From an uncultured Desulfovibrio sp. (GTDB taxonomy: Bacteria; Desulfobacterota; Desulfovibrionia; Desulfovibrionales; Desulfovibrionaceae), in contig CAJOMG010000005.1 of NCBI GenBank assembly GCA_905235595.1, positions 7,119 through 71,118 of the forward strand: a stretch of 64,000 bases of DNA, read 5' to 3'. The position numbers and the translations under genes are program-made. Below, piece by piece: positions 19,622 to 50,400 of the stretch. Under the pieces are notes generated by a model. It was not told the DNA's origin, did no database searches, and saw only the letters and a list, made by a program, of their open reading frames with translations. Each line of letters begins with the position of its first letter. Within the stretch, counting starts at the first letter, position 1.

Positions 19622-19648
19622 AGCCAGTCAGTAACATTTTTTACATAT

Positions 19649-19678
19649 GGCCGTATGTACAAACCGTACATACGGCCA
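19649..19678 (+). terminator. Hairpin after atpC
   Basis: GGCCGTATGTAC-AAACC-GTACATACGGCC, perfect 12-bp stem. Confidence 0.6.
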
Positions 19679-19719
19679 TCCTAGTTTTATCAAAAAAACG
19701 TTACACGCAGGATTCATCC

Positions 19720-20937
19720 GTGTACACACAACATCTTCTTTTCGATACAACACGCATCCCATCACCATGCTATGTACTTAATGAAGCACAACTGCGTGCC
19801 AACGCGGATATTCTTAACCATGTACAAGAACGAACCGGGGCAAAAATTCTTTTAGCTCTTAAGAGCTTTGCAGCATGGGCTACCTTTCCTCTACTTTCGA
19901 GAGAGAGAGGAAACGGGCCTCTCTGGGGCTGCTGTGCAAGTTCTGTCGATGAAGCAAGGCTAGCACGCGAAGAATTCGGCGGGGAGGTACATGCCTTTGC
20001 AGCAGCCTGGAATCAAAGGGAAATGGCTGAGTTGCTTCCTCTTGTAGACTACATTATTTTTAATTCTCTGACACAATGGCGTCGGTTTGCTCCAACTATA
20101 GCCTGGTTCAATCAGAGTCGCTGTCCACAACGACAAATCCAATGTGGGCTACGTATAAATCCAGAACATTCCGAGGGTGCCCCAGACATATATAACCCCT
20201 GCGCCCCAGGGTCACGTTTGGGTGTGCGCAAGGTGCATTTAGATGCTAGTGCAATGGAAGGCATATCAGGCTTGCATTTTCATTCCCTTTGTGAGCAAGG
20301 GGCAGATGCTTTAGAGCGTACACTAGCGGCTATTCAAAACCAGTTCCACCACTTTCTCCCTCAGTGCGACTGGATAAACATGGGTGGGGGACACCATATA
20401 ACAAAATCAGGCTATGACCTTGAACTTCTTTGTCACTGTCTTATCTCATGGCGCAATACCTACAAGGCACAAATCTATCTTGAACCGGGAGAAGCTGTGG
20501 CACTTGATGCAGGATGGCTTGTCACCACTGTGCTCGATGTCGTTCAGGCAGATATGCCCATTGCCATACTGGACATAGGTGTTCCCTGCCATATGCCGGA
20601 TGTCATTGAAATGCCTTATCGACCTAGAGTTCTCTATGTTGACAATTCATTAACTGACCTTGCAGGAATGCCTGGCGAAAAAAAATGGACATGTCGCCTT
20701 GCAGGAAAATCATGCCTTGCGGGAGATGTTGTAGGTGAATATTCATTCAATGTTCCTATCAAACTAGGGCAGAGATTGATTTTTGAAGATATGGCTATCT
20801 ACAGCATGGTAAAGACAACAACTTTCAATGGCCTGCGGCTGCCATCTATAGGTATATGCGAAAAAAGGGACAATGCACTATCATTTCGAATGCTGCGAGA
20901 ATTTTGCTATGAAGACTTCAAAAATCGGCTCTCGTAG
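19720..20937 (+). CDS. nspC: Carboxynorspermidine/carboxyspermidine decarboxylase
   Basis: TRIPSPCYVL, LALKSF (PLP lysine), YNPCAPGSRLG, GLHFH, NMGGGHHIT, LEPGEA, CHMPDV, SCLAGD, TFNG. Confidence 0.92.
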   Translation: MYTQHLLFDTTRIPSPCYVLNEAQLRANADILNHVQERTGAKILLALKSFAAWATFPLLSRERGNGPLWGCCASSVDEARLAREEFGGEVHAFAAAWNQREMAELLPLVDYIIFNSLTQWRRFAPTIAWFNQSRCPQRQIQCGLRINPEHSEGAPDIYNPCAPGSRLGVRKVHLDASAMEGISGLHFHSLCEQGADALERTLAAIQNQFHHFLPQCDWINMGGGHHITKSGYDLELLCHCLISWRNTYKAQIYLEPGEAVALDAGWLVTTVLDVVQADMPIAILDIGVPCHMPDVIEMPYRPRVLYVDNSLTDLAGMPGEKKWTCRLAGKSCLAGDVVGEYSFNVPIKLGQRLIFEDMAIYSMVKTTTFNGLRLPSIGICEKRDNALSFRMLREFCYEDFKNRLS

Positions 20938-21018
20938 CAACTCGGTCCACATTCTGACCTATTATTTTAAGATAACGACAGCATGATCAGGCACTTGGCT
21001 ATCTAAGGGATACTCAGC

Positions 21019-22989
21019 ATGGATGGTTATCGTTGTGTTCAAAAATTGCTACAAGAGAGACACTATAAGGAGGCCCTATCCCTATCAAAAACTATGCTCT
21101 CACACCAACCATCATCTTCAATATATAAACTATTAGCTGCATATGCATCAGTATTGTTAAATAAATATGATGATGCTCTATCTTTTATTGATTCTGATAT
21201 AACTATAGATAATAAATATAAAAATGAAATTGGCAATATTCTTATTTTAATAATTCACACATCCTTTGTAGAAGAAAATTTTGACGTATGTATTAAATCT
21301 GCAAATAAAATTATCTCTTCTGGAATACATGAAATTTCTGATGATACATTGCTAATAATGAGCAGTGTTTTCGATATGTATGGTTTTACCGATAAAAGTT
21401 TGAATGCGCTTAATGCAGTGAAAAAAAAAGATGCATCATTATTAATGTCAAAAGCTCTTCTCTTACAAAAGCAAGGAAATTATGAACATGCAAAGCAACT
21501 TGCTAATGATGCCATCAATCTTGATCCATCTTCAGAATATCTTGCCATCAATTACACGACACTGCTCATGCAGAGAGGAGAGAACTCGAACGTTCGAGCT
21601 TTTCTTGAAAAATTTATCATGACTAATACACAGTGTGAACTTATTCAAATACGCCTAGCACTCTCTATCCCTCCAATTCTCGAATCTCAAGATCACGCAT
21701 TTACAATACGAAATAATATTCATACAGTCTTGAAAAAAACATCTATAGAGAAACCTGTCAGACCTGAGCATCTTATCACTACCCCCCCATTCTATTTGGC
21801 GTATCATGGTCTCAATGATCGCGTTTTACTTGAAAATATTTCTGATACCATTTTGAATAACACTAGCATTCATACTCTTGTGAAAAAAGCAAAATTTAAA
21901 CGTGGCTATAATGCATCACTAAGGCATCCTAGTAAACGCAAGATCGGTTTTCTGTCATGGCATTTTTCACCCCATACAATTATGTCCTATTTCTTCAGAT
22001 TGCTGAAGCACACAGCTCCACAACTTGCAGAATGCTTTTTTATAGAGCAACCCCAACCGGATAATCTTTTTCGACACGAATTAGGCAAGATAGGTAAAAT
22101 CATCACATTACCAACAGAATCCCCTCTTCGCTTGCAGGAAATTGTTCAGTGCGTGGAAAATCTGGATTTGGATATACTGGTCTATCTCGAGTTGGGTATG
22201 GATCTGACTCCCTGGCTCCTGGCATTTACCCACCCAGCCAAAATACAATGCACACTCTACGGACACCCCGTAACCACAGGAATACGTAACGTGGATTTCT
22301 ATATCTCGCCAGAGCCCATGGAAACAGCTGGAGCGCAACAATACTACACGGAATCTTTGGTCACTCTACCCTGCCTTTTGAGTGGTTTTTTGCCTGTACA
22401 ACAACCGGTTGCCAAGGCTCAACAACAGCTTCCAGCCGGAGTAACCTATATATGCGCACAGAGTTTATTTAAAATCCACCCAGCTATGGACATGATATTT
22501 CGAAAAATTTTACAGGCGGACAAGGATGCACAACTCATCTTCTTTGTTTCAAATGATAAAAACATGTTAGCGGCGTTTACCTCACGACTAGCAAACGTGC
22601 TCGGCCCATATTATGAAAGAGTACATTTCTTACAACAATGTTCAGAATCCGACTTTCTGTCAATTATGCGCAGTGCAGATGTTGTTTTGGACACACTGTT
22701 TTTTAGCGGCGGTGCAACTTCCTATAAAGCTCTAGGAGCTGGTATCCCCGTTGTTACACATGAAGGGATGTTTATGCGTAGCAGACAAACATCGGCATTA
22801 TATCAATACATGGGCGTGGCAGGGCCAATCGCCAGAAATATTGATCATTATTTTACACTGGCGTTGGAACTGGCACATTCACCAGAAAAAAAACATGACA
22901 TCTCGTGTGAATTACTTGCGCATTCTCAGCAATTATTCAACATAAATGCATCCGTGGAACATTTTTCAAATTTCCTAGCAAGACTATAG
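21019..22989 (+). CDS. TPR-containing O-GlcNAc-transferase-like (SPINDLY / GT41) glycosyltransferase
   Basis: N-terminal TPR-like helices. Catalytic-half motifs KIGFLSWHFSPHT, LDLDILVY, PAKIQCTLYGHPVTTG, QSLFKIHP, DVVLDT...GGATS...GIPVVT. Confidence 0.85.
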   Translation: MDGYRCVQKLLQERHYKEALSLSKTMLSHQPSSSIYKLLAAYASVLLNKYDDALSFIDSDITIDNKYKNEIGNILILIIHTSFVEENFDVCIKSANKIISSGIHEISDDTLLIMSSVFDMYGFTDKSLNALNAVKKKDASLLMSKALLLQKQGNYEHAKQLANDAINLDPSSEYLAINYTTLLMQRGENSNVRAFLEKFIMTNTQCELIQIRLALSIPPILESQDHAFTIRNNIHTVLKKTSIEKPVRPEHLITTPPFYLAYHGLNDRVLLENISDTILNNTSIHTLVKKAKFKRGYNASLRHPSKRKIGFLSWHFSPHTIMSYFFRLLKHTAPQLAECFFIEQPQPDNLFRHELGKIGKIITLPTESPLRLQEIVQCVENLDLDILVYLELGMDLTPWLLAFTHPAKIQCTLYGHPVTTGIRNVDFYISPEPMETAGAQQYYTESLVTLPCLLSGFLPVQQPVAKAQQQLPAGVTYICAQSLFKIHPAMDMIFRKILQADKDAQLIFFVSNDKNMLAAFTSRLANVLGPYYERVHFLQQCSESDFLSIMRSADVVLDTLFFSGGATSYKALGAGIPVVTHEGMFMRSRQTSALYQYMGVAGPIARNIDHYFTLALELAHSPEKKHDISCELLAHSQQLFNINASVEHFSNFLARL

Positions 22990-23008
22990 TCTTTACTCGC
23001 AAAGGCGT

Positions 23009-23992
23009 ATGCATCAACTCCCCTGCTTTCTCTACGAAGAAGGCAAACATTTTACCTTACCCGGACCATTGACGTCATTAAGACGTGTCTTTTCACGTTT
23101 TGTGCAGATTGCTAAAGATGGCCGACCTACGCCGGACCCTGCAATCTTTCGCATGGTAACACATGCAGAAGACGCAGCAGTTTTCTTGTTTCCCTTAGAT
23201 CTCGGTGTGTATATTGATAGTGGCGCTGCAGAAAGTATAGGAGCAGTCGTAGCAGCCTTGCCGTTTTTTCCAGGCCGAGAACGACGTCATATTCTTACTG
23301 ATACGGGTGACAGTCTGGAGACCATCCCGCAGCCTGCCTGCATTTTTTCCACAAGTATTCTCAACAATGGAAGACCAGATGTTATACCCATGGCTTACTG
23401 TCTACCTGAACACAGCCTAGCTAACCCGCCATCTTTTGACTGGCGGGCCATACGCTATGATGTATCTTTTGTTGGTAATGTCACCCATCCTGTCCGTCGG
23501 GTCATGGTAGCGTCAATCCGTAAAGAAGCCCCACACCTACGTCTTTTCGTAGACTTTGACAACAGTACGGTAATAGATGGTAACGCCTGCCTTCACCAGC
23601 CACAAAGTCAGGAGCGAGATGCTTATCGCAAAGCGCTCTTTTGCAAGTCACTCCTCACATCATACTGTGTGCTATGCCCCCCAGGCCTTGGGCCACAATC
23701 CATCCGGCTCTATGAAACCATGCATGCAGGAAGGATACCCATAATCATCGATAATGATAGTCGTCGTCCGTTGGAAAACATTATAGACTATACTTCCTTT
23801 TGTTGTATCATACCCAAAAAATCAGTGCTGCATACGGGAACAGCGTTGGCAGCCTGGTTTGCAGCTCAAACCCAGGATTCTCTAAACAGACGTTGCACAC
23901 TGGCCTGCCGCGTCTGGAATACATGGTTTGCTCAGGAAAAACACAACGAAGCACTACTCAATATTGCACAGCGCTCTTATTGGTCAATGTGA
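23009..23992 (+). CDS. Exostosin-like (GT47) glycosyltransferase, apparently cytoplasmic
   Basis: YDVSFVG, HPVRR, SYCVLCPPGLGPQSIRLYETMHAGRIPIII (exostosin signature). No signal peptide or TM segment. Confidence 0.8.
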   Translation: MHQLPCFLYEEGKHFTLPGPLTSLRRVFSRFVQIAKDGRPTPDPAIFRMVTHAEDAAVFLFPLDLGVYIDSGAAESIGAVVAALPFFPGRERRHILTDTGDSLETIPQPACIFSTSILNNGRPDVIPMAYCLPEHSLANPPSFDWRAIRYDVSFVGNVTHPVRRVMVASIRKEAPHLRLFVDFDNSTVIDGNACLHQPQSQERDAYRKALFCKSLLTSYCVLCPPGLGPQSIRLYETMHAGRIPIIIDNDSRRPLENIIDYTSFCCIIPKKSVLHTGTALAAWFAAQTQDSLNRRCTLACRVWNTWFAQEKHNEALLNIAQRSYWSM

Positions 23993-24018: not shown

Positions 24019-24055
24019 TATAAAAAAAGCCCCCGGCATGGGGGCTTTTTTTATA
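24019..24055. terminator. Bidirectional intrinsic terminator
   Basis: TATAAAAAAAGCCCCC-GGCAT-GGGGGCTTTTTTTATA between the GT47 gene and groEL. Confidence 0.9.
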
Positions 24056-26055: not shown

Positions 26056-26317
26056 AACGTCATATCCTCCCAATAATTTTTATCTAGGAACACAGCAACG
26101 GTCATAGTACCGGCCGCACTGGAAATTGCGCGTAACAGGCCACGACGCGGATATCGTAGCCGCTATGGCCCGCACCGGACATATAGATAAGACATACTTT
26201 GCAGTTGAAAAGGGGGTAATGAAAAAAATTTTGCTTTTTTCTTTGAAGTCTATCCCAAACAAAAAATGCGGCCTCGCAACTTGAGCGCAGCCGCAAAAAA
26301 AATGATATGGCTGAATG

Positions 26318-26551
26318 CTAGGGGGCTGGGTGATGGGGAATATCCCTCTCATGAGCGCTGGCAAGATTACGATTCCACGCGCGGATGGCCGCCCCTTGAG
26401 AAACAGACCACTGTTGCGAAGTCTGCCCGCAAGAGCAAACAACACGCCAGACCTCTTGCCGCCGACCTGGTGGCAACATGGATTCAAGGTGAACATTAGT
26501 GCCACCGCAGGCAAGACAAGGACGGATAGTGTGTGGATCGAGTTCTTTCAT
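26318..26551 (-). CDS. Small zinc-ribbon protein, Lar (restriction alleviation)-like
   Basis: IRPCLACGG ... VVCSCG ... AAIRAWN matches the Lar pattern PCPFCG...CxxCG...A...WN. Confidence 0.6.
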   Translation of the reverse strand: MKELDPHTIRPCLACGGTNVHLESMLPPGRRQEVWRVVCSCGQTSQQWSVSQGAAIRAWNRNLASAHERDIPHHPAP

Positions 26552-26639
26552 GCAGACTACTGTAGCAGCATTGCCATTGCTGCACAAGGACTGTACATAT
26601 TCTTACATCATTAAATTTTTATCTAAGGAGAGTAGTCAT

Positions 26640-27833
26640 ATGCCAACTCTTTCCTTTCAACACAAACCTCATCTGCGCCGCTGCCTGTGGATATTACTGT
26701 TGGCTGTTCCCGCAGTGTTGATTACTTCGCGTTTCCTTTTCAGCAACCACACACAACGCCGCATCATGCCTATGGAAGCTCCTCCGGTGCGTGTAGCCGT
26801 TGCCTTGGCACAGGATGTTCCCTATTTACTTAGCGGCCTTGGTACGGTGCAACCATCAAGTGACGTTCTGGTTACCAGCCGCGTGGACGGGCACCTACAA
26901 TGCCTTCACTTCAAAGAAGGACAACGTGTCAAAGCAGGAGATCTCCTCGCCGAAATCGATCCCCGCCCCTTTGAGGCAGAACTGACGCAAGCTCAGGGCA
27001 CATTGACGAGAGATCTGGCCCTGCTAGATAATGCCCGTAAGGACATGGTTCGTTATGCAACTCTGTCCAAAAACGATTTTATTGCCCGGCAGGAGTATGA
27101 CAATCAACGTGCCCTGGTACGTCAGTATGAAGGCACGGTGCAGGCCGACAAAGCCGCCGTTGAAGCCGCACGCTTGAAGCTGGAATATAGCCGCATCACT
27201 GCCCCGTCATCGGGTCGACTTGGCCTGCGTACGGTAGACGTAGGCAACATGATTAAAAGTTCGGACACGTTGGGTATTGTCCGCATCACTGAAACACGCC
27301 CCTGTGATGTGCTTTTTACCCTGCCAGATATTTATGTTCCCCTGGTCATTCAGGCTTTGCGTACTTCAAGGGATGGCGCTGGACCGCTGGTTCAGGCATG
27401 GGACAGAAAGCAACAAAAACTGCTGGATACTGGTTATCTTATGTCACTGGACAATCGCATTGACACCGCTACGGGTACCGTGCGCTTAAAGGGGCGTTTT
27501 CTTAATGCGGATGAAACACTGTACCCCAATCAATTTGTAAATGCACGGCTGCTGGTGCGGGTATTGCCTAAAGCTATAACCGTTCCCACTGCGGCAGTGC
27601 AGACAGGCGTTCGCGCCTCATATCTCTATGTAGTTGTGCGTACTGAGAACAATCAAGGAACCGTTGTCATGCGCGAGGTAAAAACTGGTATTGCCACAGA
27701 TGCACTAACAGTCATCGAAGAAGGTCTAAAAGCAGATGAACTGGTTGTGATAGACGGCATAGATCGGCTTCGCGACGGCCTGACCGTGACAATAGCCACT
27801 TCAGTAGAAACACCTAAGGCAGAATCTTTCTGA
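26640..27833 (+). CDS. mdtA: RND efflux periplasmic adaptor MdtA
   Basis: [54 protein letters not shown]. Confidence 0.9.
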
Positions 27834-27843
27834 GACAAAGCAG

Positions 27844-30800
27844 ATGAACCTTTCCCGTATTTTTATTCTCCGGCCGGTCGCTACTTCGCTACTCATGGCG
27901 GCGCTGCTACTGTCTGGCATACTGGGCTATCATTACCTTCCAGTGTCAGCCCTACCGCAGATAGACTACCCCACCATTCAAGTGCAGACGTACTATCCCG
28001 GTGCCGCTCCTGACGTCATCGCGGCCGTTATTACGGCCCCGCTGGAGCGGCAGTTTGGTGCCATGCCTGGTTTAACGCAAATGCACTCTTTGTCCTCTGC
28101 AGGAGCATCTGTAGTAACGCTACTCTTCGATCTCTCTGTAGCGCTGGATGTGGCTGAACAGGAAGTTCAGGCAGCCATCAATACAGCAAATAATCTTCTT
28201 CCACAGGATTTGCCTGCGCCACCCGTATACAACAAAGTCAATCCCGCAGATCCACCAGTTATGACCCTGGCTGTGACCAGCAGTGCTATCCCTTTGACCC
28301 ACCTAGAAGATTTGGTGGATACGCGGATGGCCCAAAAAATATCTCAACTACCCGGCGTGGGTCTGGTAACTCTATCCGGCGGGCAACGACCTGCTGTACG
28401 TGTGCAGGTGAATCCACGTGCTCTGGCTGCCGCTGGTCTAACACTGGCACAAGTGCGTTCTGCTATCGTTCAAGCTAATGTCAATACTGCCAAAGGTAGT
28501 TTTGACGGACCTGAACGTGCCATGAGCATTGACGCCAACGATCAGCTGACCTCGGCAAAGGAGTATGCGTCGACGATAATTGGATACAAGGACGGCGCTC
28601 CACTGCGACTGGGTGATATCGCTGATGTTGTTGAAGGGGCTGAAAATGCCCGTTTAGGGGCTTTTGTGGCCGGGAAAAATTCTGATTTCAACCCTGCCAT
28701 TGTGCTTTCTATCCAACGCCAGCCAGGTGCAAATGTCATTTACGTGGCTGACCGTGTGCGGCAACTGCTCCCGCTTCTACAAGAAACACTCCCCGGCAAT
28801 GTAGAGGTTCGCGTTGTAACAGACAGAACTATTACTATCCGCGCCACCGTAAAAGACGTACAAATGGAACTGCTTCTGTCCGTTGTACTTGTCATCGGCG
28901 TCATCTGGTTTTTTTTGCGTAACGGACGTGCCACAATCATTCCCGCACTGGCAGTTCCCCTTTCCCTTATAGGGACCTTGGGTGTCATGTATCTGGCCGG
29001 ATATTCCCTCAACAATCTTACACTCATGGCTCTCGTCATTGCCACCGGTTTTGTAGTAGATGATGCCATTGTAGTAATTGAAAACATTGTCCGCTATCTA
29101 GGGCAGGGACAATCGCCTGTACAGGCGTCGCTAATAGGCGCAGGCCAGATTGGCTTTACCATTATTTCGCTAACCATTTCACTTGTCGCAGTACTCATTC
29201 CTCTGCTTTTCATGGGAGATGTCGTAGGGCGGCTGTTCCGCGAATTTGCCGTTACTCTTGCCGTAACGATACTCGTTTCTGCTGGCATCTCTCTCACACT
29301 CACGCCTATGTTATGCGCCATAATGTTGCGACCAGAGCAAAAGTCACATCCTGATGAAGGCTTTTTTACACACCTGCTCACTTGGTATGAACAGGCATTA
29401 GACGCAGTTCTTGCCCATCAGAGGCCCATGTTTGCTGTGGCAGCAGGGACCCTGGTGCTCACCATTGCTCTGTATATCCTAGTGCCCAAGGGTTTTTTTC
29501 CAGTGCAGGATACGTGCGTCATACAAGGCATTGCTGAAGCTGCTCAAGATTCTTCCTTTATGGCTATGGCCAACCGGCAGGAAATCTTAGCAAAGGCCAT
29601 TCTGCAAGATCCTGGAGTGGATAGCGTTGTCTTTCTTGTTGGCGTAGACGGCATCAACCCCAGCATGGGAACATCACGTCTTACTATCGCATTAAAGGCA
29701 TTATCAGAACGTGATTCCCGAGCTCCGGCCATCGCCCGTCGCATTATGACAAAGGTTGCCAATATCCCTGGCCTAACCCTCTACTTGCAACCCGTGCAGG
29801 ATCTTACCATTGAAGACAGAATATCACGCACCCAGTATCAGTTTACGGTTGAAGCCTTGAATCGGGAACAGTTAGACGTATGGATACCCAAAATTCTTAG
29901 ACAGCTAGCCCAACAGCCTGAACTTGAACTTGTAACCAGCGACTATCAAAATCCTGGCAGTATGCTCTGGCTCACCATCGACAGAGATACCGCAGGCCGT
30001 CTGGGAGTGAGCATGTCAGACATTGACAACGCCCTCTACGACGCTTTGGGTCAACGACTCATCTCAACCATCTTTACACAGACAAACCAATACAAGGTGG
30101 TGCTGGAAGTAGCTCCGGCCTTTAGACAGGAACCACAGTCGCTGCAAAATCTCTATGTGAACGGGGCAGATGGAACGCCCATCCCATTAACAAGTTTGAT
30201 CACGGCAGAAGAACGCCCAATGCCACTTTCCATAGCAAGGCAGGGTCAGTTCCCCGTGGCAACCATCTCCTTCAACGTTGCGGATAATTCTTCGCTAGGA
30301 GCAGCTGTCAGAGCTCTTGCCAAGACAGAAGCCCAACTATCTATTCCAAACGCTCTACGTACGGAGCTACAGGGTTCGGCAAAGGCCTTCCTGGCATCCA
30401 GCGACAATCAGGTCTGGTTAATCCTGGCGGCAGTAATTACAGTGTATATTGTCTTGGGTGTGCTCTATGAAAGCTACATCCATCCCGTAACCATATTATC
30501 CACTCTTCCATCGGCTGGTGTAGGAGCACTGCTAGCGCTCATGGCTTTCCATATGGACTTGGGTGTGATGGGCATCATTGGGATTATTCTCCTCATTGGT
30601 ATTGTCAAAAAAAACGCCATCATGATGATTGACTTTGCCCTTGATGCAGAACGCAACGAGGGCAAATCCCCCCAGGCTGCCATTCGTCAGGCATGCCTGC
30701 TGCGATTGAGGCCAATTCTTATGACTACCATGGCGGCGCTTCTGGGTGCCCTGCCTCTCATGCTCGGATGGGGCATGGGTGCTGAACTTAGACGCCCATT

Positions 30801-30975
30801 AGGCGTAACCATGGTTGGTGGACTAATATGCAGCCAGGTACTCACCCTGTTCACCACGCCTGTTATCTATCTCTGGTTTGACCGCATAAGCCGTCGCTTG
30901 CGTGGTCTTGTTACTGCAGGCAACACAGCACATAACTTGACAGAGATAGACACCTCAACAGGGGAATCCCCATGA
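27844..30975 (+). CDS. mdtB: RND efflux transporter MdtB
   Basis: [56 protein letters not shown]. Confidence 0.93.
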
Positions 30976-33900
30976 GTGAAGGCACATTCCCGCAGCGAGA
31001 CCGTTCTGACAGGATGCAACGCCTGAAACAACTCCGGGAAAGCGGCAGCAGACACCGCTTCGGTCCGGAATCGCTGGAAACCAATCTCTCCGCACCATTC
31101 ATCCGGCGGCCGGTAGCCACAACATTGCTGACCTTGGCCTTGGCCTTAGCTGGCATGGTAGCTTTCGGCCTACTACCCGTGGCCCCCCTGCCGCAGGTGG
31201 ACTATCCTGTAGTTGTGGTTAGAGCCAGGATGCCCGGCGCAGGGCCAGAGACCATGGCCTCCACCGTGGCCACACCGCTGGAGCGCGCCCTCGGCCGTAT
31301 CGCTGGCGTGACTGAAATGACATCTACAAGTAGCCTGGGTTCCACCAACGTCATCCTGCAATTCGAGTTGGAGCGTGATATCAACGGCGCTGCACGCGAT
31401 GTGCAGTCAGCCATCAATGCCGCTCGTTCTACGCTGCCCAGCATGCCTTCTAATCCAAGTTATCGCAAAGTGAATCCGTCTGGTGCTCCTATTCTGATTC
31501 TCTCCATCACCTCCGACACGTTAACCCGTACGCAACTATACGACGCGGCTTCCACAATACTAGCTCAAAAAATTGCACAATTACCTGGCGTAGGCGAAGT
31601 AACGGTTGGGGGCGGCGCACTACCAGCTGTACGAATAGACGTTATCCCCGATGCGCTGCATAGAACAGGCCTTGCCATGGCAGACGTGCGTGCCGCTCTA
31701 GCAGAGGCCAACGCTTTTCTGCCTAAAGGTCAGCTGGAAAATGGTAAACGATACTGGCTGGTGGGAGCTAGTGACCAATTGCGAGAGGCATCAGCCTATA
31801 ACAACATCATTATAGGTCGACACGAGGGGCATGTAATACGCCTTGCCGATATAGCTCGCATTGTGGACGGACCGGAAGATATACGCACCATGGCCATAGC
31901 TGACGGCAAGCCTGCAGTTTTGTTGATGGTTTTCCGTGCGCCAGGGGCCAATATCATTGAAACAGTCGATAAGGTGAAGGCCATGCTGCCACAGTTGCGT
32001 GCCTGGCTGCCTGAAACTGCAGACTTGGCCCTACGCATGGATCGCTCACTAACAATAAGAGCGTCGCTTAAAGAGGTAGAAAAAAGCCTGCTTCTTTCCA
32101 TGGCGCTTGTCGTATTGGTAACTTTTCTTTTTTTACGCAATGCCCGTGCTACAGCTATTCCTGCAGTTGCCGTGCCTGTATCCCTGCTCGCGACCTTCGG
32201 GGTCATGTACTTATGCGGCCATAGCCTCGACAATCTTTCTCTTATGGCACTCACAGTCTCCACAGGCTTTGTGGTAGACGATGCCATCGTTGTCCTTGAA
32301 AATATCGTGCGACATATGGAAGCAGGCGAAAGCCCCCTGCGAGCCTCACTACGTGGAGCCAAGGAAGTTGGCTTTACCGTCATTTCAATTTCCATTTCCC
32401 TGGTAGCCGTTTTTTTGCCCATCCTGTTTATGAGTGGCATTATCGGTCGTCTTTTCCACGAATTTTCCGTTGTGCTCACAGCGGCAGTACTCGTTTCAAT
32501 GCTTGTTTCCCTGACTACTACGCCAATGATGTGCTCTCTCATGCTCAGGCCCAAAGCCTTCGAAAATATCGTTTTTCCCCCCCACATAAACAAAGGATTT
32601 TACAGCCAATTACGCAGTATTATTTCATTTGTAGACGGACTCTGGGGGCGTACCCTTGCTGCCATGCAGAATGCATATGCCACCAGTCTGCCCACGGTGC
32701 TGCGTCACCGCCATCTGACTATGCTGATTTTTCTTTGTATTATTGGCGCATCTGTCTGGCTGTATATTATTGTGCCTAAGGGTTTTTTTCCCCAACAGGA
32801 TACAGGCGTTATCATGGGTGGAATACAAGCCGACCAAAGTGCCTCTTTTCAGGCCACACAGGAACGCCTGCAACGACTCATGTCTGTTATTGTCAGTGAT
32901 CCGGCTGTAGCCAATGTTTCAGGGTACATCTCGGGCGGGCGCGGAGGCGGTGGAGTGTTCATCACCCTGAAGCCTCTTGCAGAACGTGGTATTAGTGTCA
33001 TGAACGTCATCGCTCGCCTACGCGGTCGTCTTTCCGCTGAACCTGGTGTGCAAATCTTTCTGCAACCAGCACAGGACATAATGATGGGTGGACGCAGCGC
33101 ACGCTCTCAGTATCAGTATACCTTGCAAGCCGATAATCTTAACGAACTGCGGGCCTGGGGACGCAAGATGCAACATGCCATGATTGAACATTCTACCTTC
33201 AAAGACGTAAACAGTGATATTGAAGAACGCGGTTTGGAGACCTTTATTACTGTTGATCGGGATGCCCTAGCCCGTTTGGATCTCACCATGCGCGATGTTG
33301 ATACTGCACTCGGCAACGCATTTGGACAAAGCCAAGTTTCCACCATCTATCAGGACAAGAACCAGTACCACGTCGTATTGGAATATGGCCCCAGCTGGCT
33401 GACCGGCCCAGACGCCCTAGGAAAAGTTTATCTGCCGGGTCGGGATGCACTCGTACCCCTTGCTGCCTTAGCTTCCGTTTCCCCATCTCTGGCTCCTCTT
33501 TCCGTAGCACACCAGGGACAATTTGCAGCTGTCACCATAGCATTTAACCTCGCTCCCAATGTCTCACTCTCGCAAGCACAGGACGATGTGGAACGCATCA
33601 AAGTCACGCTTGGCATGCCTGCAAGTGTGTTGGCAGGATTTCAAGGCACAGGAAAACTGTTCACCGATAGTGCTAAAAACCAGATCGTACTCGTCTTAAC
33701 AGCCCTGGCAGTGCTCTATATTGTTCTAGGCATGCTCTATGAAAGTCTCATTCATCCCTTAACCATACTTTCCACACTGCCTTCTGCGGGCTGTGGTGCC
33801 TTGCTTGCGCTCATGGCCTGCGGCATGGAGTTTAGTGTTATCGCTCTTATCGGCGTTCTTCTTCTTTGTGGACTTGTCAAAAAAAACGCTATTATGATGA

Positions 33901-34178
33901 TTGACGTAGCACTAGCCATATCACGCGCACGCTCTCTTACACCGGAACAAGCAATTTATGAAGCATGCCTCCTGCGTTTTCGGCCCATTATGATGACAAC
34001 AGCCGCAGCTATTTTAGGTGCTATACCACTCGCGCTGGGACAAGGAGACGGCGCAGAGCTGCGCCAACCCCTCGGCGTGACCATTGTGGGTGGATTGCTG
34101 GTTAGTCAGTTGCTGACACTCTATACCACCCCTGTAGTCTATCTTTGCCTGGATCGTTTTCGCCACGATACCCACTAG
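30972..34178 (+). CDS. mdtC: RND efflux transporter MdtC
   Basis: [28 protein letters not shown], second RND of a tandem pair, ATGA coupling. Confidence 0.92.
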
Positions 34179-48505: not shown

Positions 48506-49519
48506 TCAATCTCCCACAAAAGGTGTACGCAGACCAGTACCATCTACACCAAAACAGCCATCTAATTGTTTATTGTCGCCAGGATGTCTAAAGTACCCAT
48601 CCATACACATAACTGGGGTACCCATGCGTAGTAGCGTACTGACTGTAGTAAAACGATAGCCCTGAGCCTGCAATAACGCCACCACTTCACGTAACAGCTG
48701 CGCCGTGCCGCGGGGAACGCGATTCGCGTGAAAAAGCAGAATTGAACCCTGCCTAACTTGATCGACTACCCGACGAGCTGATTTTTTAGCCTGTATAGGC
48801 CTGCTGCTGTCACCGACTTCGGCCACTACATCCCAGAGTACTACTCGCATTCCCAAAGAGGACAATGTGTTCAACGCAGCCGGTGTACACCTTCCATAAG
48901 GCAAACGAAAAAGGGTCGGCACCGGTGCGATGTCGGGCACGGGCATTCCCCTCATTTCTGCCTGACGCAATGTCTCTTCACGTAACAACTCATACTGGGC
49001 CTGCGTCCACAACACCTGGGCCCGCAAACCACTACTCGAAAGTAACGCACAGTTACCGTGGGTCCATGCATGGTTACCGATTTCAAACAATGGTTCGTTC
49101 ATAATCTGCAAAACACGACGAGCATGGGTACGCATCCATTTCCCACCCATGAACAGAGTGGCCGGAATCTTTTCCTCGCGCAAGTAGTTGAGAATGTCCA
49201 TATCACAACCGGTTGTCACTGTAGCAAGCTCACACATGTCAAAAGTCAGGGCGACTATTTTTTCCTCACTATCAATAGATACTCGCCTGATGGTTCCAAC
49301 CATGTGCTCTTCCAGTGGGGGCAACAGCATGCTGGGCTCTCGACGGTCTGGAGGACGGGTATCATTGGGAAGCATTTTTCTTTCATCCCAAGAATCTGCT
49401 TTCCAAGATGATTCCAATGCGAATGCTATATCATGTACAACGGCAAAAGCCAGCGAAGACAACAAAAACAACCAAAACCTGACAAAAGCATTCTGTCTCG
49501 TTATACCACTCCCTAACAT
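48506..49519 (-). CDS. Exported polysaccharide deacetylase (NodB/CE4 family)
   Basis: Signal-like N-terminus, VALTFD, IGNHAWTH, FRLPYG, WDVV, ILLFHAN. Confidence 0.85.
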   Translation of the reverse strand: MLGSGITRQNAFVRFWLFLLSSLAFAVVHDIAFALESSWKADSWDERKMLPNDTRPPDRREPSMLLPPLEEHMVGTIRRVSIDSEEKIVALTFDMCELATVTTGCDMDILNYLREEKIPATLFMGGKWMRTHARRVLQIMNEPLFEIGNHAWTHGNCALLSSSGLRAQVLWTQAQYELLREETLRQAEMRGMPVPDIAPVPTLFRLPYGRCTPAALNTLSSLGMRVVLWDVVAEVGDSSRPIQAKKSARRVVDQVRQGSILLFHANRVPRGTAQLLREVVALLQAQGYRFTTVSTLLRMGTPVMCMDGYFRHPGDNKQLDGCFGVDGTGLRTPFVGD

Positions 49520-50400
49520 AACCTGTAGCCCTCATTTGCAGCATACGCCAAAGACATAAGCAAATGGCAAAGTTTTGCAGCCGTAAAATCTGCATGGTGC
49601 AATCCTGCAATAGGGGCTAATTCAACCACGTCCAACCCTACAACATGACGCCCCTGCATACAGCGTTCTAAAATAAATTGCGTTTCACGCCAATTTAAGC
49701 CTCCAGGCGAGGGTGTGCCTGTGGCTGGCATAAGTGAAGAATCAAGTCCGTCAACATCAAAAGAAATATAGATATCGTGCGGGAAGTTTTCTGGCAGAGG
49801 ATGTTCCGGCAATCCCACACGTGCCAAATAACACGCATCATAATGCGTAACGTCAAAATGTTCGCGCGTCTTCGCCTCTTCACGGCTCAAATCACGAACA
49901 GCGAATTGCGTCAAGGGAAGGCTTAATTCAGCTACAGCCCGATACATGACACAGGCATGAGAATACGCATTACCCTCGTAGTGCGCTCGCAGATCTGCAT
50001 GTGCATCAAACTGCACTACGCCAAAGAATGCACCAGTCTGGCGTGAACGGGCTGCAAGAGCACGTAATGCCCCAAGGGTAACTGTATGCTCACCACCAAG
50101 AATTACGGGTACAGCCCCACATTTCAGTGCATGCGCTGTTACTAACGTAATGCGCTCCAACACTCCTTCAACGGGGCCGGAACAATCAATCGGCTGCACA
50201 GTGTAAAAACCTGCTTCACCTGGTGCGAAGCCACTTTCCCAAGCTTCAAGTTGTTGTGAAGCATCTAGCAAGGCTTGAGGACCTCTGGCCGTTCCACGTC
50301 CATAAGAAACACTCTGCTCCAACGGCGCAGGAATAATATGGAATGCCGCCTCTTCTGGTGGCACAGGAGCATACTCTGATGCGAGGAAACTATTCTTCAT
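49513..50400 (-). CDS. speB: Agmatinase (ureohydrolase family)
   Basis: GGEHTVT, FDAHADLR, SHAC, SFDVDGLD, TGTPSPGG, DVVELAP. Confidence 0.9.
   Translation of the reverse strand: MKNSFLASEYAPVPPEEAAFHIIPAPLEQSVSYGRGTARGPQALLDASQQLEAWESGFAPGEAGFYTVQPIDCSGPVEGVLERITLVTAHALKCGAVPVILGGEHTVTLGALRALAARSRQTGAFFGVVQFDAHADLRAHYEGNAYSHACVMYRAVAELSLPLTQFAVRDLSREEAKTREHFDVTHYDACYLARVGLPEHPLPENFPHDIYISFDVDGLDSSLMPATGTPSPGGLNWRETQFILERCMQGRHVVGLDVVELAPIAGLHHADFTAAKLCHLLMSLAYAANEGYRLC

What the first reader, a model, noticed from the sequence alone, without database searches (positions are those of the whole stretch)
21019..23992. GT41 (OGT/SPINDLY-like) plus GT47 (exostosin-like) cassette: candidate cytoplasmic prime-and-extend glycosylation system
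Seen: two co-oriented genes 19 bp apart sit between nspC and the groEL terminator. One has TPRs and the GT41 catalytic motifs, including the conserved His and Lys positions. The other has the exostosin signature. Neither has a signal peptide or TM anchor. Known: GT41 enzymes (OGT, SPINDLY, HMW1C/NGT) put the first sugar on proteins. In Actinobacillus an adjacent second transferase extends the NGT-linked glucose. GT47 enzymes are chain-extending enzymes best known from eukaryotic heparan sulfate and plant wall synthesis, and are poorly characterised in bacteria. Inference: GT41 primes a protein acceptor chosen by its TPRs and GT47 extends it. I do not know this pairing as a described system.
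Basis: partly seen in the sequence, partly recalled or inferred. Interest (0 to 1): 0.72.

Follow-up and report, generated by a model that had tools for sequence, protein, structure and literature searches.

The report
Lineage-specific GT41 plus GT47 gene pair
Two intact, probably co-transcribed genes for soluble sugar-adding enzymes (a TPR-bearing OGT/SPINDLY-type GT41 and a compact exostosin-type GT47) sit side by side in one gut/rumen Desulfovibrio lineage, but the pairing is found nowhere else, so it is a local arrangement of known enzyme types, not a conserved new system.

Summary
ORFs 21019-22989 (656 aa) and 23009-23992 (327 aa) lie 19 bp apart on the + strand, between nspC and a hairpin terminator shared with groEL. 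The first is a TPR + GT41 protein: Pfam above threshold, nearest folds SPINDLY/OGT, H319 and K485 at the OGT His498/Lys842 positions. The second is GT47-like: Pfam above threshold, nearest folds the EXT1/EXT2/EXTL3 GT47 domains, invariant E236 at the EXT1 Glu349 position. Neither has a TM segment or signal-peptide-like N-terminus.

Only a near-identical relative (goat-rumen Desulfovibrio MAG) keeps the pair. It is absent from 17 other GT47 loci and 5 other GT41 loci, and no GT41-GT47 fusion was found among 336 family proteins.

Coupling in this lineage is not excluded. The genes look co-transcribed and are under purifying selection. GT47-like relatives often sit beside another glycosyltransferase of varying family, or are fused to one, and are often fused to TPR arrays.

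My best model is sequential cytoplasmic protein glycosylation, at about 0.4, and it is inferred, not shown. Independent functions are nearly as likely. Both genes are new members of known families; interest is modest.

The parts
19720..20937 (+). nspC (carboxynorspermidine decarboxylase). An unrelated housekeeping gene that may be the first gene of the same transcript, since no terminator separates it from GT41.
   Evidence: TIGR01047 462 bits against a cutoff of 409. The only strong upstream terminator-like hairpin is at 19647-19679, before nspC.
20938..21018 (+). 81-bp nspC-GT41 spacer with a Shine-Dalgarno-like AAGGGA at 21005-21010, 8 nt before the ATG.
   Evidence: Sequence read. The 3' part, including AAGG(G/A)A, is conserved in L001, which has a 9-bp deletion further upstream. 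No terminator-like site here.
21019..22989 (+). GT41 gene (656 aa): about 6 TPR-like helix pairs (aa 3-202; nt 21025-21624), linker helices, then a GT-B catalytic domain (aa ~300-656). H319 codon at 21973-21975; K485 codon at 22471-22473.
   Evidence: PF13844 45.2 bits against 25, plus TPR families. AF2 pLDDT 92.6. Foldseek best hits SPY, TtOGT, hOGT and XcOGT, E 1e-27 to 1e-20. His/Lys alignment. dN/dS 0.16 against L001.
22990..23008 (+). 19-bp intergenic spacer with a purine-rich AAAGG at 23001-23005 and no terminator. It implies co-transcription of the two genes.
   Evidence: Sequence. 20 bp and 94% identical in L001. No terminator-like site.
23009..23992 (+). GT47-like gene (327 aa): a compact, soluble, single-domain GT-B. 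Motif C223-PPGLGPQSIRLY-E236 at nt 23675-23716; E236 codon at 23714-23716.
   Evidence: PF03016 43.0 bits against 33.4. AF2 pLDDT 94.9, pTM 0.91. Foldseek best hits are the EXTL3/EXT1/EXT2 GT47 domains, E 9e-14 to 3e-9. E236 is invariant in 29 homologues and aligns with the EXT1/EXTL3 C-alpha4 Glu. dN/dS 0.13.
24019..24055 (.). Bidirectional intrinsic-terminator-like hairpin (16-nt arms, 100% complementary, 5-nt loop, A-run and T-run flanks) that ends both the GT47 transcript and the convergent groEL transcript.
   Evidence: Inverted repeat I2; sequence.

Best explanation
Shown: in one gut/rumen Desulfovibrio lineage, two intact genes for soluble GT-B glycosyltransferases lie 19 bp apart with no intervening terminator and end at one shared terminator. 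One is a TPR + GT41 enzyme of the OGT/SPINDLY type that keeps the catalytic-site His and Lys. The other is a 327-aa GT47-like enzyme that keeps the nucleotide-sugar-binding Glu of the exostosins. The pairing is a lineage-specific juxtaposition, not a conserved cassette. Inferred, as the model I consider most likely at about 0.4: the two are co-transcribed, possibly together with nspC, and act in one short cytoplasmic pathway. The roughly six TPRs of the GT41 enzyme bind one or a few protein substrates and place a Ser/Thr in the cleft between the catalytic lobes. K485 holds the diphosphate of a nucleotide-sugar and the first sugar is transferred with inversion. The GT47 enzyme, also inverting, then adds a second sugar to that protein-linked sugar, using E236 to hold the donor's ribose. 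The donor sugars and the acceptor protein are unknown.
For: Annotation and integrity. Purifying selection on both genes (dN/dS 0.16 and 0.13 at dS ~0.3), similar to nspC (0.12). Operon-like structure: a 19-bp gap kept as 20 bp in L001, no terminator between the genes, and one bidirectional terminator after GT47. They are the only glycan-related genes within about 10 kb of a housekeeping region holding the atp operon, nspC, groESL and RND efflux genes. The arrangement is identical in 9 contigs from several metagenomes. The GT47-like family tends to work with partners. At 4 of 17 independent loci a second GT of a different family lies within 1.6 kb: GT2/GT92-like in L002, GT4 overlapping the start codon in L010, and GT2 in L011 and L008. 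The chance of at least 4 of 17 is 0.004-0.12 for a GT gene fraction of 1-3%. Among 40 long relatives, 22 are fused to TPR arrays, 8 to a GT9-like module, 5 to GT2, 3 to GT4 and 8 to Methyltransf_24. P0201 reads [TPR + GT-B]-[GT47]-[TPR + GT-B]. Precedents: ngt-agt is a two-gene cytoplasmic prime-and-extend operon described as present in only one species (PMC5303269), and FlmG is a soluble TPR + GT-B protein O-glycosyltransferase (PMC7591256).
Against: There is no recurrence of this specific pair. No GT41 was found within the available flanks of 17 other GT47-family loci. No GT47 was found at 5 loci of the closest GT41 homologues. The GT41-catalytic HMM had no hit among 216 GT47-family proteins, and the GT47 HMM had none among 120 GT41 homologues. 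Most core-clade GT47 genes are solitary, in unrelated contexts (MlaA/C, Cys/Met PLP enzyme, sigma-54 regulators, MutL, RNase J), so the enzyme does not need an adjacent partner. Composition differs: GT41 GC3 is 0.32 (0.22 in the TPR part), GT47 is 0.415 and neighbours are 0.38-0.54, which suggests separate histories. The nearest relatives from other species are 42-46% identical for GT41 but 63-64% for GT47. The TPR-fused relatives carry a GT9-like module, not GT41 (hhalign probability 0.1). TPR is a promiscuous domain, so fusion to it is weak evidence. No transcript data were found.
Confidence: 0.4

Rival explanations
1. The two enzymes are functionally independent and only adjacent. GT41 glycosylates its protein target(s) with a single sugar, as OGT, SPINDLY and GmaR do. 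The GT47 enzyme serves an unrelated acceptor, as it presumably does in the many genomes where it stands alone: a small molecule, an envelope glycolipid, or a protein-linked glycan primed by an unlinked enzyme. Co-transcription would be an accident of where one gene landed.
For: The pair is absent from 17 other GT47 loci and 5 other GT41 loci, and there are no fusions. The GT47 core clade is mostly solitary in varied housekeeping contexts. The two genes differ in GC3 and in divergence from their nearest relatives. After GT47, the closest folds include small-molecule and protein GT-Bs: POGLUT1, BshA, GlgM and SenB.
Against: Tight 19-20-bp spacing is conserved across dS ~0.3, with a single terminator. 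No other glycan genes nearby could supply a different partner. The GT47-like family is enriched for adjacent or fused partner GTs and TPR arrays.
Confidence: 0.35
2. The pair is an NGT/HMW1C-type cytoplasmic N-glycosylation system, a direct analogue of Actinobacillus ngt-agt. GT41 would put a hexose on Asn in N-X-S/T sequons of adhesins and the second enzyme would polymerise it.
For: There is weak sequence similarity to NGT/HMW1C (NCBIfam NF049992 E 7e-9; PDB 3q3e E 4.5e-5). The gene order is the same, with the primer followed by the extender.
Against: NF049992 scores 34.8 bits against a cutoff of 1000. The protein has an N-terminal TPR array and matches TtOGT and SPINDLY far better than HMW1C (E 3e-22 and 8e-14 against 4.5e-5; fold search). 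The second enzyme is GT47-like; the fold-search hit to the Actinobacillus minor glucosyltransferase 8xsg, a different Actinobacillus GT-B, is only rank 43. No adhesin or autotransporter gene was found in the annotated parts of the window.
Confidence: 0.04
3. The two genes form a recently acquired foreign island that was inserted as a unit between nspC and groEL.
For: GC falls to 0.30 at 21000-21500, against about 0.49 for the window. Both genes are absent from this position in every nspC relative examined.
Against: Only the GT41 gene, mainly its TPR part, is AT-rich; GT47 has host-like GC3 of 0.415. There are no flanking direct or inverted repeats beyond short chance matches, and no integrase, transposase or tRNA in the annotated flanks. 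The synteny test is uninformative, because nspC relatives of 77% identity or less lack the atp and groEL neighbours altogether. Both genes have relatives mainly in Desulfovibrionaceae.
Confidence: 0.1

Closest known systems
Bacterial and eukaryotic TPR-GT41 protein O-glycosyltransferases (human OGT, Arabidopsis SPINDLY, Thermobaculum terrenum OGT, Xanthomonas XcOGT)
   Same: An N-terminal TPR array followed by a GT-B catalytic domain. PF13844 is above threshold. The nearest solved folds are these proteins (TM up to 0.77 normalised to XcOGT). Lys485 and His319 occupy the positions of hOGT Lys842 and His498.
   Different: Only about 15-21% identical to any solved GT41 in structure-based alignment. 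The Pfam model matches only the C-terminal lobe. It belongs to a Desulfovibrio-centred subclade annotated only as 'tetratricopeptide repeat protein' or 'predicted O-linked GlcNAc transferase (SPINDLY family)'. The hOGT His920 position is Gly565 here. The donor cannot be assigned, because GT41 is multispecific: GlcNAc, fucose and glucose (PMC11468063).
GT47 domains of animal exostosins (EXT1, EXT2, EXTL3) and plant GT47 enzymes (e.g. IRX10)
   Same: PF03016 is above threshold. The AF2 model's nearest solved folds are the exostosin GT47 domains. The invariant E236 aligns with EXT1 Glu349 and EXTL3 Glu453, the conserved C-alpha4 acidic residue that the literature gives as the family hallmark.
   Different: It is a 327-aa soluble single-domain bacterial protein with no membrane anchor, no GT64 partner domain and no secretory-pathway setting. 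It is about 12-15% identical to the exostosins in structure-based alignment. EXT1 Arg340 is replaced by a hydrophobic residue (L227). No activity is known for any member of this bacterial clade.
Actinobacillus pleuropneumoniae rimO-ngt-agt operon (cytoplasmic prime-and-extend protein glycosylation)
   Same: A GT41-family primer gene is followed immediately by a second soluble glycosyltransferase gene, downstream of an unrelated housekeeping gene, with one terminator after the second GT. That pairing is also restricted to one species (PMC5303269).
   Different: The primer there is NGT, an N-glucosyltransferase, whereas the window protein has a TPR array and fails the NGT equivalog model (34.8 bits against 1000). 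The extender there is an alpha-1,6-glucosyltransferase, not a GT47. Function is demonstrated there and only inferred here.
Caulobacter FlmG (soluble TPR + GT-B flagellin O-glycosyltransferase)
   Same: A modular cytoplasmic enzyme in which the TPR domain selects the protein substrate and a GT-B domain transfers the sugar (PMC7591256).
   Different: No sequence-level comparison with FlmG was made here. The window has no flagellin or nonulosonic-acid genes near the pair; the only motility genes are motA/motB about 38 kb away.
Chlorovirus PBCV-1 A075L (GT114, formerly annotated as exostosin/GT47)
   Same: A soluble cytosolic GT-B once annotated as PF03016 that extends a protein-linked glycan (PMC11571054).
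   Different: It is only a distant structural match (Foldseek E ~1e-5, TM 0.36, rank 26 and below), far behind the true GT47 domains.

Membership tests
GT41 (Pfam PF13844; OGT/SPINDLY type) | Family HMM above the curated threshold | tested here: met
   45.2 bits against a gathering score of 25, but only profile positions 358-537 of 543 are matched. All 120 listed homologues hit a catalytic-domain HMM built from the family.
GT41 (Pfam PF13844; OGT/SPINDLY type) | N-terminal TPR superhelix followed by a two-lobed GT-B catalytic domain | tested here: met
   TPR_19, TPR_2 and TPR_14 hits. The AF2 model (pLDDT 92.6) has 12 paired helices in aa 3-202, then alpha/beta lobes. Foldseek top hits are SPY, TtOGT, hOGT and XcOGT, E 6e-27 to 1e-20.
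GT41 (Pfam PF13844; OGT/SPINDLY type) | Diphosphate-binding Lys (hOGT Lys842) and active-site His (hOGT His498) | tested here: met
   The profile-to-hOGT alignment places K485 opposite Lys842 and H319 opposite His498. K485 is present in 32 of 32 and H319 in 27 of 32 homologues.
GT41 (Pfam PF13844; OGT/SPINDLY type) | Transfers a sugar to a protein side chain | not testable with these tools
   Needs an enzyme assay or glycoproteomics.
NGT/HMW1C N-glucosyltransferases (NCBIfam NF049992) | Equivalog HMM above cutoff | tested here: not met
   34.8 bits against a cutoff of 1000. PDB HMW1C-like 3q3e scores E 4.5e-5, against 3e-22 for TtOGT. The N-terminus is a TPR array.
GT47 (Pfam PF03016, exostosin) | Family HMM above the curated threshold | tested here: met
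   43.0 bits against a gathering score of 33.4; only positions 204-290 of 293 are matched. NCBI names homologues 'glycosyltransferase family 47 protein'.
GT47 (Pfam PF03016, exostosin) | GT-B fold closest to solved GT47 domains | tested here: met
   AF2 pLDDT 94.9. The 16 best PDB hits are all EXTL3, EXT1 or EXT2 (E 9e-14 to 3e-9, query-normalised TM 0.59-0.66). The next family, GT90 POGLUT1, is at E 2e-6.
GT47 (Pfam PF03016, exostosin) | Conserved Asp/Glu on helix C-alpha4 (EXT1 Glu349, EXTL3 Glu453, IRX10 Glu293) | tested here: met
   E236 is invariant in 29 homologues. It aligns with the Glu of 'FRFLEAL' in EXT1 and 'TRLFEAL' in EXTL3. The hallmark is taken from PMC9178029. The Glu is also invariant in 40 long relatives.
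GT47 (Pfam PF03016, exostosin) | Inverting transfer that extends an existing glycan | not testable with these tools
   Needs an enzyme assay. No member of this bacterial clade has been characterised, as far as the literature searches show.
Conserved two-gene prime-and-extend cassette (GT41 + GT47) | Adjacent, co-oriented genes with no terminator between them | tested here: met
   A 19-bp gap, 20 bp in L001. No terminator-like site in the gap, and a shared hairpin terminator at 24019-24055.
Conserved two-gene prime-and-extend cassette (GT41 + GT47) | The pair recurs across genomes, as neighbours or as a fusion | tested here: not met
   Found only in the window's species and in L001 (89-94% aa identity). 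Absent from 17 other GT47-family loci and from 5 GT41 loci. No fusions among 336 proteins. Some flanks are cut short by contig ends.
Conserved two-gene prime-and-extend cassette (GT41 + GT47) | Both genes on one transcript | tested here: inconclusive
   No RNA runs hold this sequence. Co-transcription is inferred only from spacing and terminator positions.
Conserved two-gene prime-and-extend cassette (GT41 + GT47) | The second enzyme acts on the product of the first; an acceptor protein is identified | not testable with these tools
   No candidate acceptor gene is linked to the pair. Needs biochemistry.

The most novel reading that the evidence does not exclude
In this Desulfovibrio lineage the two genes form a working two-step cytoplasmic O-glycosylation pathway. 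A TPR-GT41 enzyme primes a specific protein and a minimal soluble GT47 extends the sugar. This would give the first defined function for a bacterial GT47. It would also be one instance of a wider, undescribed habit of bacterial GT47-like domains, which team up with TPR-guided glycosyltransferases either as neighbours or as giant [TPR + GT-B]-[GT47]-[TPR + GT-B] fusion proteins.
Probability: 0.3. Interest if true: 0.6.

Novelty: new member of a known kind. Interest (0 to 1): 0.33.

Why it matters
As it stands, this is a correct annotation of two uncharacterised members of known glycosyltransferase families, in a local gene arrangement. It would matter in two ways if followed up. First, the literature I read treats GT47 as a eukaryotic, membrane-bound family. 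A 327-aa soluble bacterial homologue that models at pLDDT 95 and keeps the hallmark Glu could be a convenient model for GT47 donor and acceptor recognition. Second, if GT47 really extends a GT41-installed sugar, the pair would be a second, unrelated example of cytoplasmic prime-and-extend protein glycosylation after Actinobacillus NGT/alpha6GlcT, a system already used in glycoengineering. The TPR-GT47 and multi-GT fusions found here suggest that bacterial GT47-like domains take part in protein-directed glycosylation more widely than is currently annotated.

Tried and rejected
1. nspC synteny, to test whether the pair is an insertion. The 80 metagenome loci with nspC relatives (77% identity or less) had no atp, groEL, GT41 or GT47 genes nearby, so the whole neighbourhood is lineage-specific and the test says nothing.
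2. Insertion scars. Only short chance repeats flank the pair, and the annotated flanks hold no mobile-element genes.
3. Transcript evidence. No public RNA run holds the sequence.
4. Whether the GT9-like module in the TPR-GT47 fusion proteins is a diverged GT41. The hhalign probability is 0.1, so this was rejected.
5. A possible link through Methyltransf_24, which lies next to a GT41 homologue in L016 and is fused to GT47 in P0186. The two methyltransferases share only 25% identity (pairwise E 0.009), so this is no more than family-level similarity.
6. Direct GT41-GT47 fusions. None was found among 216 GT47-family and 120 GT41-family proteins, with a positive control of 120 of 120.
7. A conserved neighbour of any kind for the GT47 core clade. 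None was found. The sigma-54 activators near two loci (L010, L105) and the FlgO and FliM genes near two others (L105, L106) are too sparse to interpret.
8. An NGT-type N-glycosylation reading. Rejected on the equivalog score and the domain architecture.
9. Literature searches for a bacterial GT41-GT47 pairing or for TPR-exostosin proteins. Nothing relevant was found.
10. Sigma-70 promoter scan. Matches were not above the shuffled expectation (15 against 10.6 +/- 3.0), so no promoter is claimed.


Full report
OBSERVATION. The window holds two co-oriented ORFs at exactly the stated coordinates: 21019-22989 (656 aa) and 23009-23992 (327 aa), separated by 19 bp. The upstream gene (19720-20937) is nspC by the NCBIfam equivalog (462 bits, cutoff 409), and it follows the ATP synthase operon. 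Downstream, groEL and groES run on the opposite strand. A perfect hairpin (16-nt arms, 5-nt loop, 24019-24055) flanked by A- and T-runs lies between the GT47 and groEL stop codons and can terminate both transcripts. The wider window is core housekeeping DNA: atp operon, groESL, an mdtABC-like RND pump, pnp, truB, infB, nusA and motAB. No sugar-nucleotide, flagellin or polysaccharide-export genes lie near the pair.

ORF A IS A TPR-GT41 PROTEIN. It passes Pfam PF13844 (45.2 bits, cutoff 25) and several TPR models. Only the C-terminal lobe matches the Pfam profile, but 528 homologues were found, and many of those listed are annotated by JGI as SPINDLY-family O-GlcNAc transferases. A family profile aligns both catalytic lobes to human OGT and SPINDLY. 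In that alignment the family's 'FxxHT' lies opposite hOGT 'FGNHP' (His498), and 'QSLFKIHP' lies opposite 'NQLYKIDP' (Lys842). The window residues are H319 (27 of 32 homologues) and K485 (32 of 32). The AF2 model (pLDDT 92.6) shows 12 paired helices (aa 3-202, about six TPRs), linker helices and two alpha/beta lobes. Its best PDB matches are SPINDLY, T. terrenum OGT, human OGT and XcOGT (E 6e-27 to 1e-20). It is not an NGT/HMW1C equivalog (34.8 bits against 1000). GT41 is multispecific (PMC11468063), so the donor sugar cannot be read from the sequence.

ORF B IS A COMPACT SOLUBLE GT47-LIKE PROTEIN. It passes PF03016 (43.0 bits, cutoff 33.4), again through its C-terminal part only. The AF2 model is very confident (pLDDT 94.9, pTM 0.91). 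Its 16 best PDB matches are all GT47 domains of EXTL3, EXT1 or EXT2 (E 9e-14 to 3e-9, TM ~0.6-0.66), clearly ahead of the next GT-B families. [quoted passage not shown] The invariant E236 in 'CPPGLGPQSIRLYE' aligns with that Glu. Neither protein has a hydrophobic segment above 1.47 on a 19-residue Kyte-Doolittle scan, and neither has a signal-peptide-like N-terminus. Both genes are under purifying selection against the relative L001 (dN/dS 0.16 and 0.13 at dS ~0.3; nspC is 0.12).

THE PAIR DOES NOT RECUR. A scan of one genome per species found 14 loci that encode GT47 relatives, all from Desulfovibrionaceae or Deltaproteobacteria MAGs. Only L001 has a GT41 gene next to it. L001 is a goat-rumen Desulfovibrio MAG, fully syntenic from atp to the RND pump, with 89-94% aa identity for the two GTs. 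The other 13 loci have no GT41 within the available flanks and share no neighbour at all. Four more loci also lack GT41: P0123 (62% identical), P0127, P0146 and the fused relative P0186. In the other direction, five loci of the closest GT41 homologues (35-46% identical) have no GT47. A GT41-catalytic HMM finds nothing among 216 GT47-family proteins, and a GT47 HMM finds nothing among 120 GT41 homologues; the positive control gave 120 of 120. The two genes also differ in history. GT41 has GC3 of 0.32 (0.22 in the TPR part), against 0.415 for GT47 and 0.38-0.54 for the neighbours. The nearest relative from another species is 42-46% identical for GT41 but 63-64% for GT47. The arrangement is stable within the species, being identical in 9 contigs from several metagenomes. 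Even so, it is a lineage-specific juxtaposition and not a conserved cassette.

WHAT STILL SPEAKS FOR COUPLING. First, the structure is operon-like. The gap is 19 bp (20 bp in L001, 94% identical), there is no terminator between the genes or between nspC and GT41, and one terminator follows GT47. Second, the published precedent, A. pleuropneumoniae rimO-ngt-agt, is itself described as present in only one species and is nonetheless functional (PMC5303269). Lack of conservation therefore removes support without refuting the idea. Third, and new here, the GT47-like family tends to work with partners. At 4 of 17 independent loci a second glycosyltransferase of varying family lies within 1.6 kb: GT2/GT92-like in L002, GT4 overlapping the start codon in L010, and GT2 in L011 and L008. 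A sugar epimerase and a hexapeptide transferase lie near two further loci. The chance of at least 4 of 17 is 0.004-0.12, depending on the assumed GT gene density. An exhaustive profile search shows that the family is much larger than the word-indexed search suggested: 6,414 representatives at E<=1e-3 and 107 at <=1e-30, against 31-51 proteins. Of the 142 top representatives held, 40 are longer than 450 aa. All 40 carry PF03016; 22 also carry TPR arrays, 8 a GT9-like module, 8 Methyltransf_24, 5 GT2 and 3 GT4, and one of those scanned singly (P0191) carries a NodZ-like domain. P0201 reads [TPR + GT9-like]-[GT47]-[TPR + GT9-like], which is the window's logic fused into one polypeptide. The caveats are real. 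The partner GT-B in these fusions is not GT41 (hhalign probability 0.1). TPR is a promiscuous domain. These fusion proteins are cousins of the core clade (170-250 bits against 270-490).

MECHANISM AND ODDS. What is shown: two intact, selected, soluble GT-B genes with conserved catalytic-site residues in an operon-like arrangement. What is inferred: GT41's TPRs select a protein, and a first sugar goes on a Ser/Thr, with K485 holding the donor diphosphate. GT47 then adds a second sugar, with E236 holding the donor ribose. I put sequential action at about 0.4, independent functions at about 0.35, and the remainder on other readings. These include an acquired island (about 0.1, not exclusive of either of the first two) and an NGT-like N-glycosylation system (about 0.04). 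No acceptor, donor or transcript evidence could be obtained.

COMPARISON AND NOVELTY. Both proteins meet every testable defining feature of their families (GT41 and GT47) and are new, uncharacterised members. NCBI already names relatives 'glycosyltransferase family 47 protein' and 'tetratricopeptide repeat protein'. As a system, the pair resembles ngt-agt in layout, but it differs in both enzymes and fails the recurrence test. No paper in the searchable library describes a bacterial GT41-GT47 pairing or TPR-exostosin proteins. The most interesting by-product is the compact soluble bacterial GT47 clade and its TPR and multi-GT fusion relatives, which suggest a role in protein-directed glycosylation.

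VERDICT. The annotation is right, the 'cassette' is not conserved, and coupling in this lineage is plausible but unproven. Interest is modest at 0.33. The most novel reading still allowed has a probability of about 0.3 and would merit about 0.6.

Noticed in passing
window 21019-21920 (GT41 codons 1-300): The TPR and linker part of the GT41 gene is strongly AT-rich (GC3 0.22-0.27), against 0.35-0.44 for its own catalytic half and 0.38-0.54 for neighbouring genes. Only three homologues (P0002, P0003, P0011) align over the first ~150 residues. This suggests a swapped or fast-evolving substrate-recognition module.
   Followed up: partly
proteins P0195, P0201, P0206, P0208, P0212, P0219 (metagenome representatives, 1165-2156 aa): These giant proteins combine TPR arrays, one or two GT9-like GT-B modules and a GT47-like domain; P0201 reads [TPR + GT9-like]-[GT47]-[TPR + GT9-like]. 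I found no description of this architecture in the searchable literature. Taxonomy is unknown; the cluster of P0219 lies on contigs of about 570 kb.
   Followed up: partly
L107 8001-9734 (Desulfovibrio sp. CP182354.1; protein P0186): A GT47-like domain is fused to a class I SAM methyltransferase (Methyltransf_24) in a complete Desulfovibrio genome, at a solitary locus next to a cytochrome oxidase operon. Eight of 40 long relatives share this fusion, which hints at methylated-sugar products.
   Followed up: partly
L010 1020-3751; L002 2527-5372; L011 1679-3946: Core-clade GT47 genes are paired with a different second glycosyltransferase in different lineages: GT4 overlapping the start codon, a GT2/GT92-like gene 558 bp downstream, and a divergent GT2 175 bp upstream. 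The partner appears to be exchangeable.
   Followed up: partly
window 19647-19720: A strong 14-bp-stem hairpin follows atpC and ends only 40 bp before the nspC start. nspC directly downstream of the atp operon is peculiar to this lineage: nspC relatives of 77% identity or less have neither atp nor groEL nearby.
   Followed up: partly
window 26080-26514 (- strand): An ORF of about 140 aa with no Pfam match lies immediately upstream of groES and diverges from the RND efflux operon. It is called as a gene in public assemblies and conserved in L001. Its function is unknown.
   Followed up: no
window 26499-34178: An mdtABC-like efflux operon: one membrane-fusion protein followed by two tandem ACR_tran (RND) pump genes of 1043 and 1068 aa.
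   Followed up: no
window 48506-50400 (- strand): An arginase-family (agmatinase-like) gene overlaps the start of a polysaccharide deacetylase-family gene. Together with nspC, this places two polyamine-pathway genes in the window about 30 kb apart.
   Followed up: no
L015 6341-7885 and L017 8697-10583: Two of the five GT41-subclade loci have a GGDEF or EAL-GGDEF (c-di-GMP) gene immediately next to the GT41 gene, on the same strand. The sample is too small to interpret.
   Followed up: no
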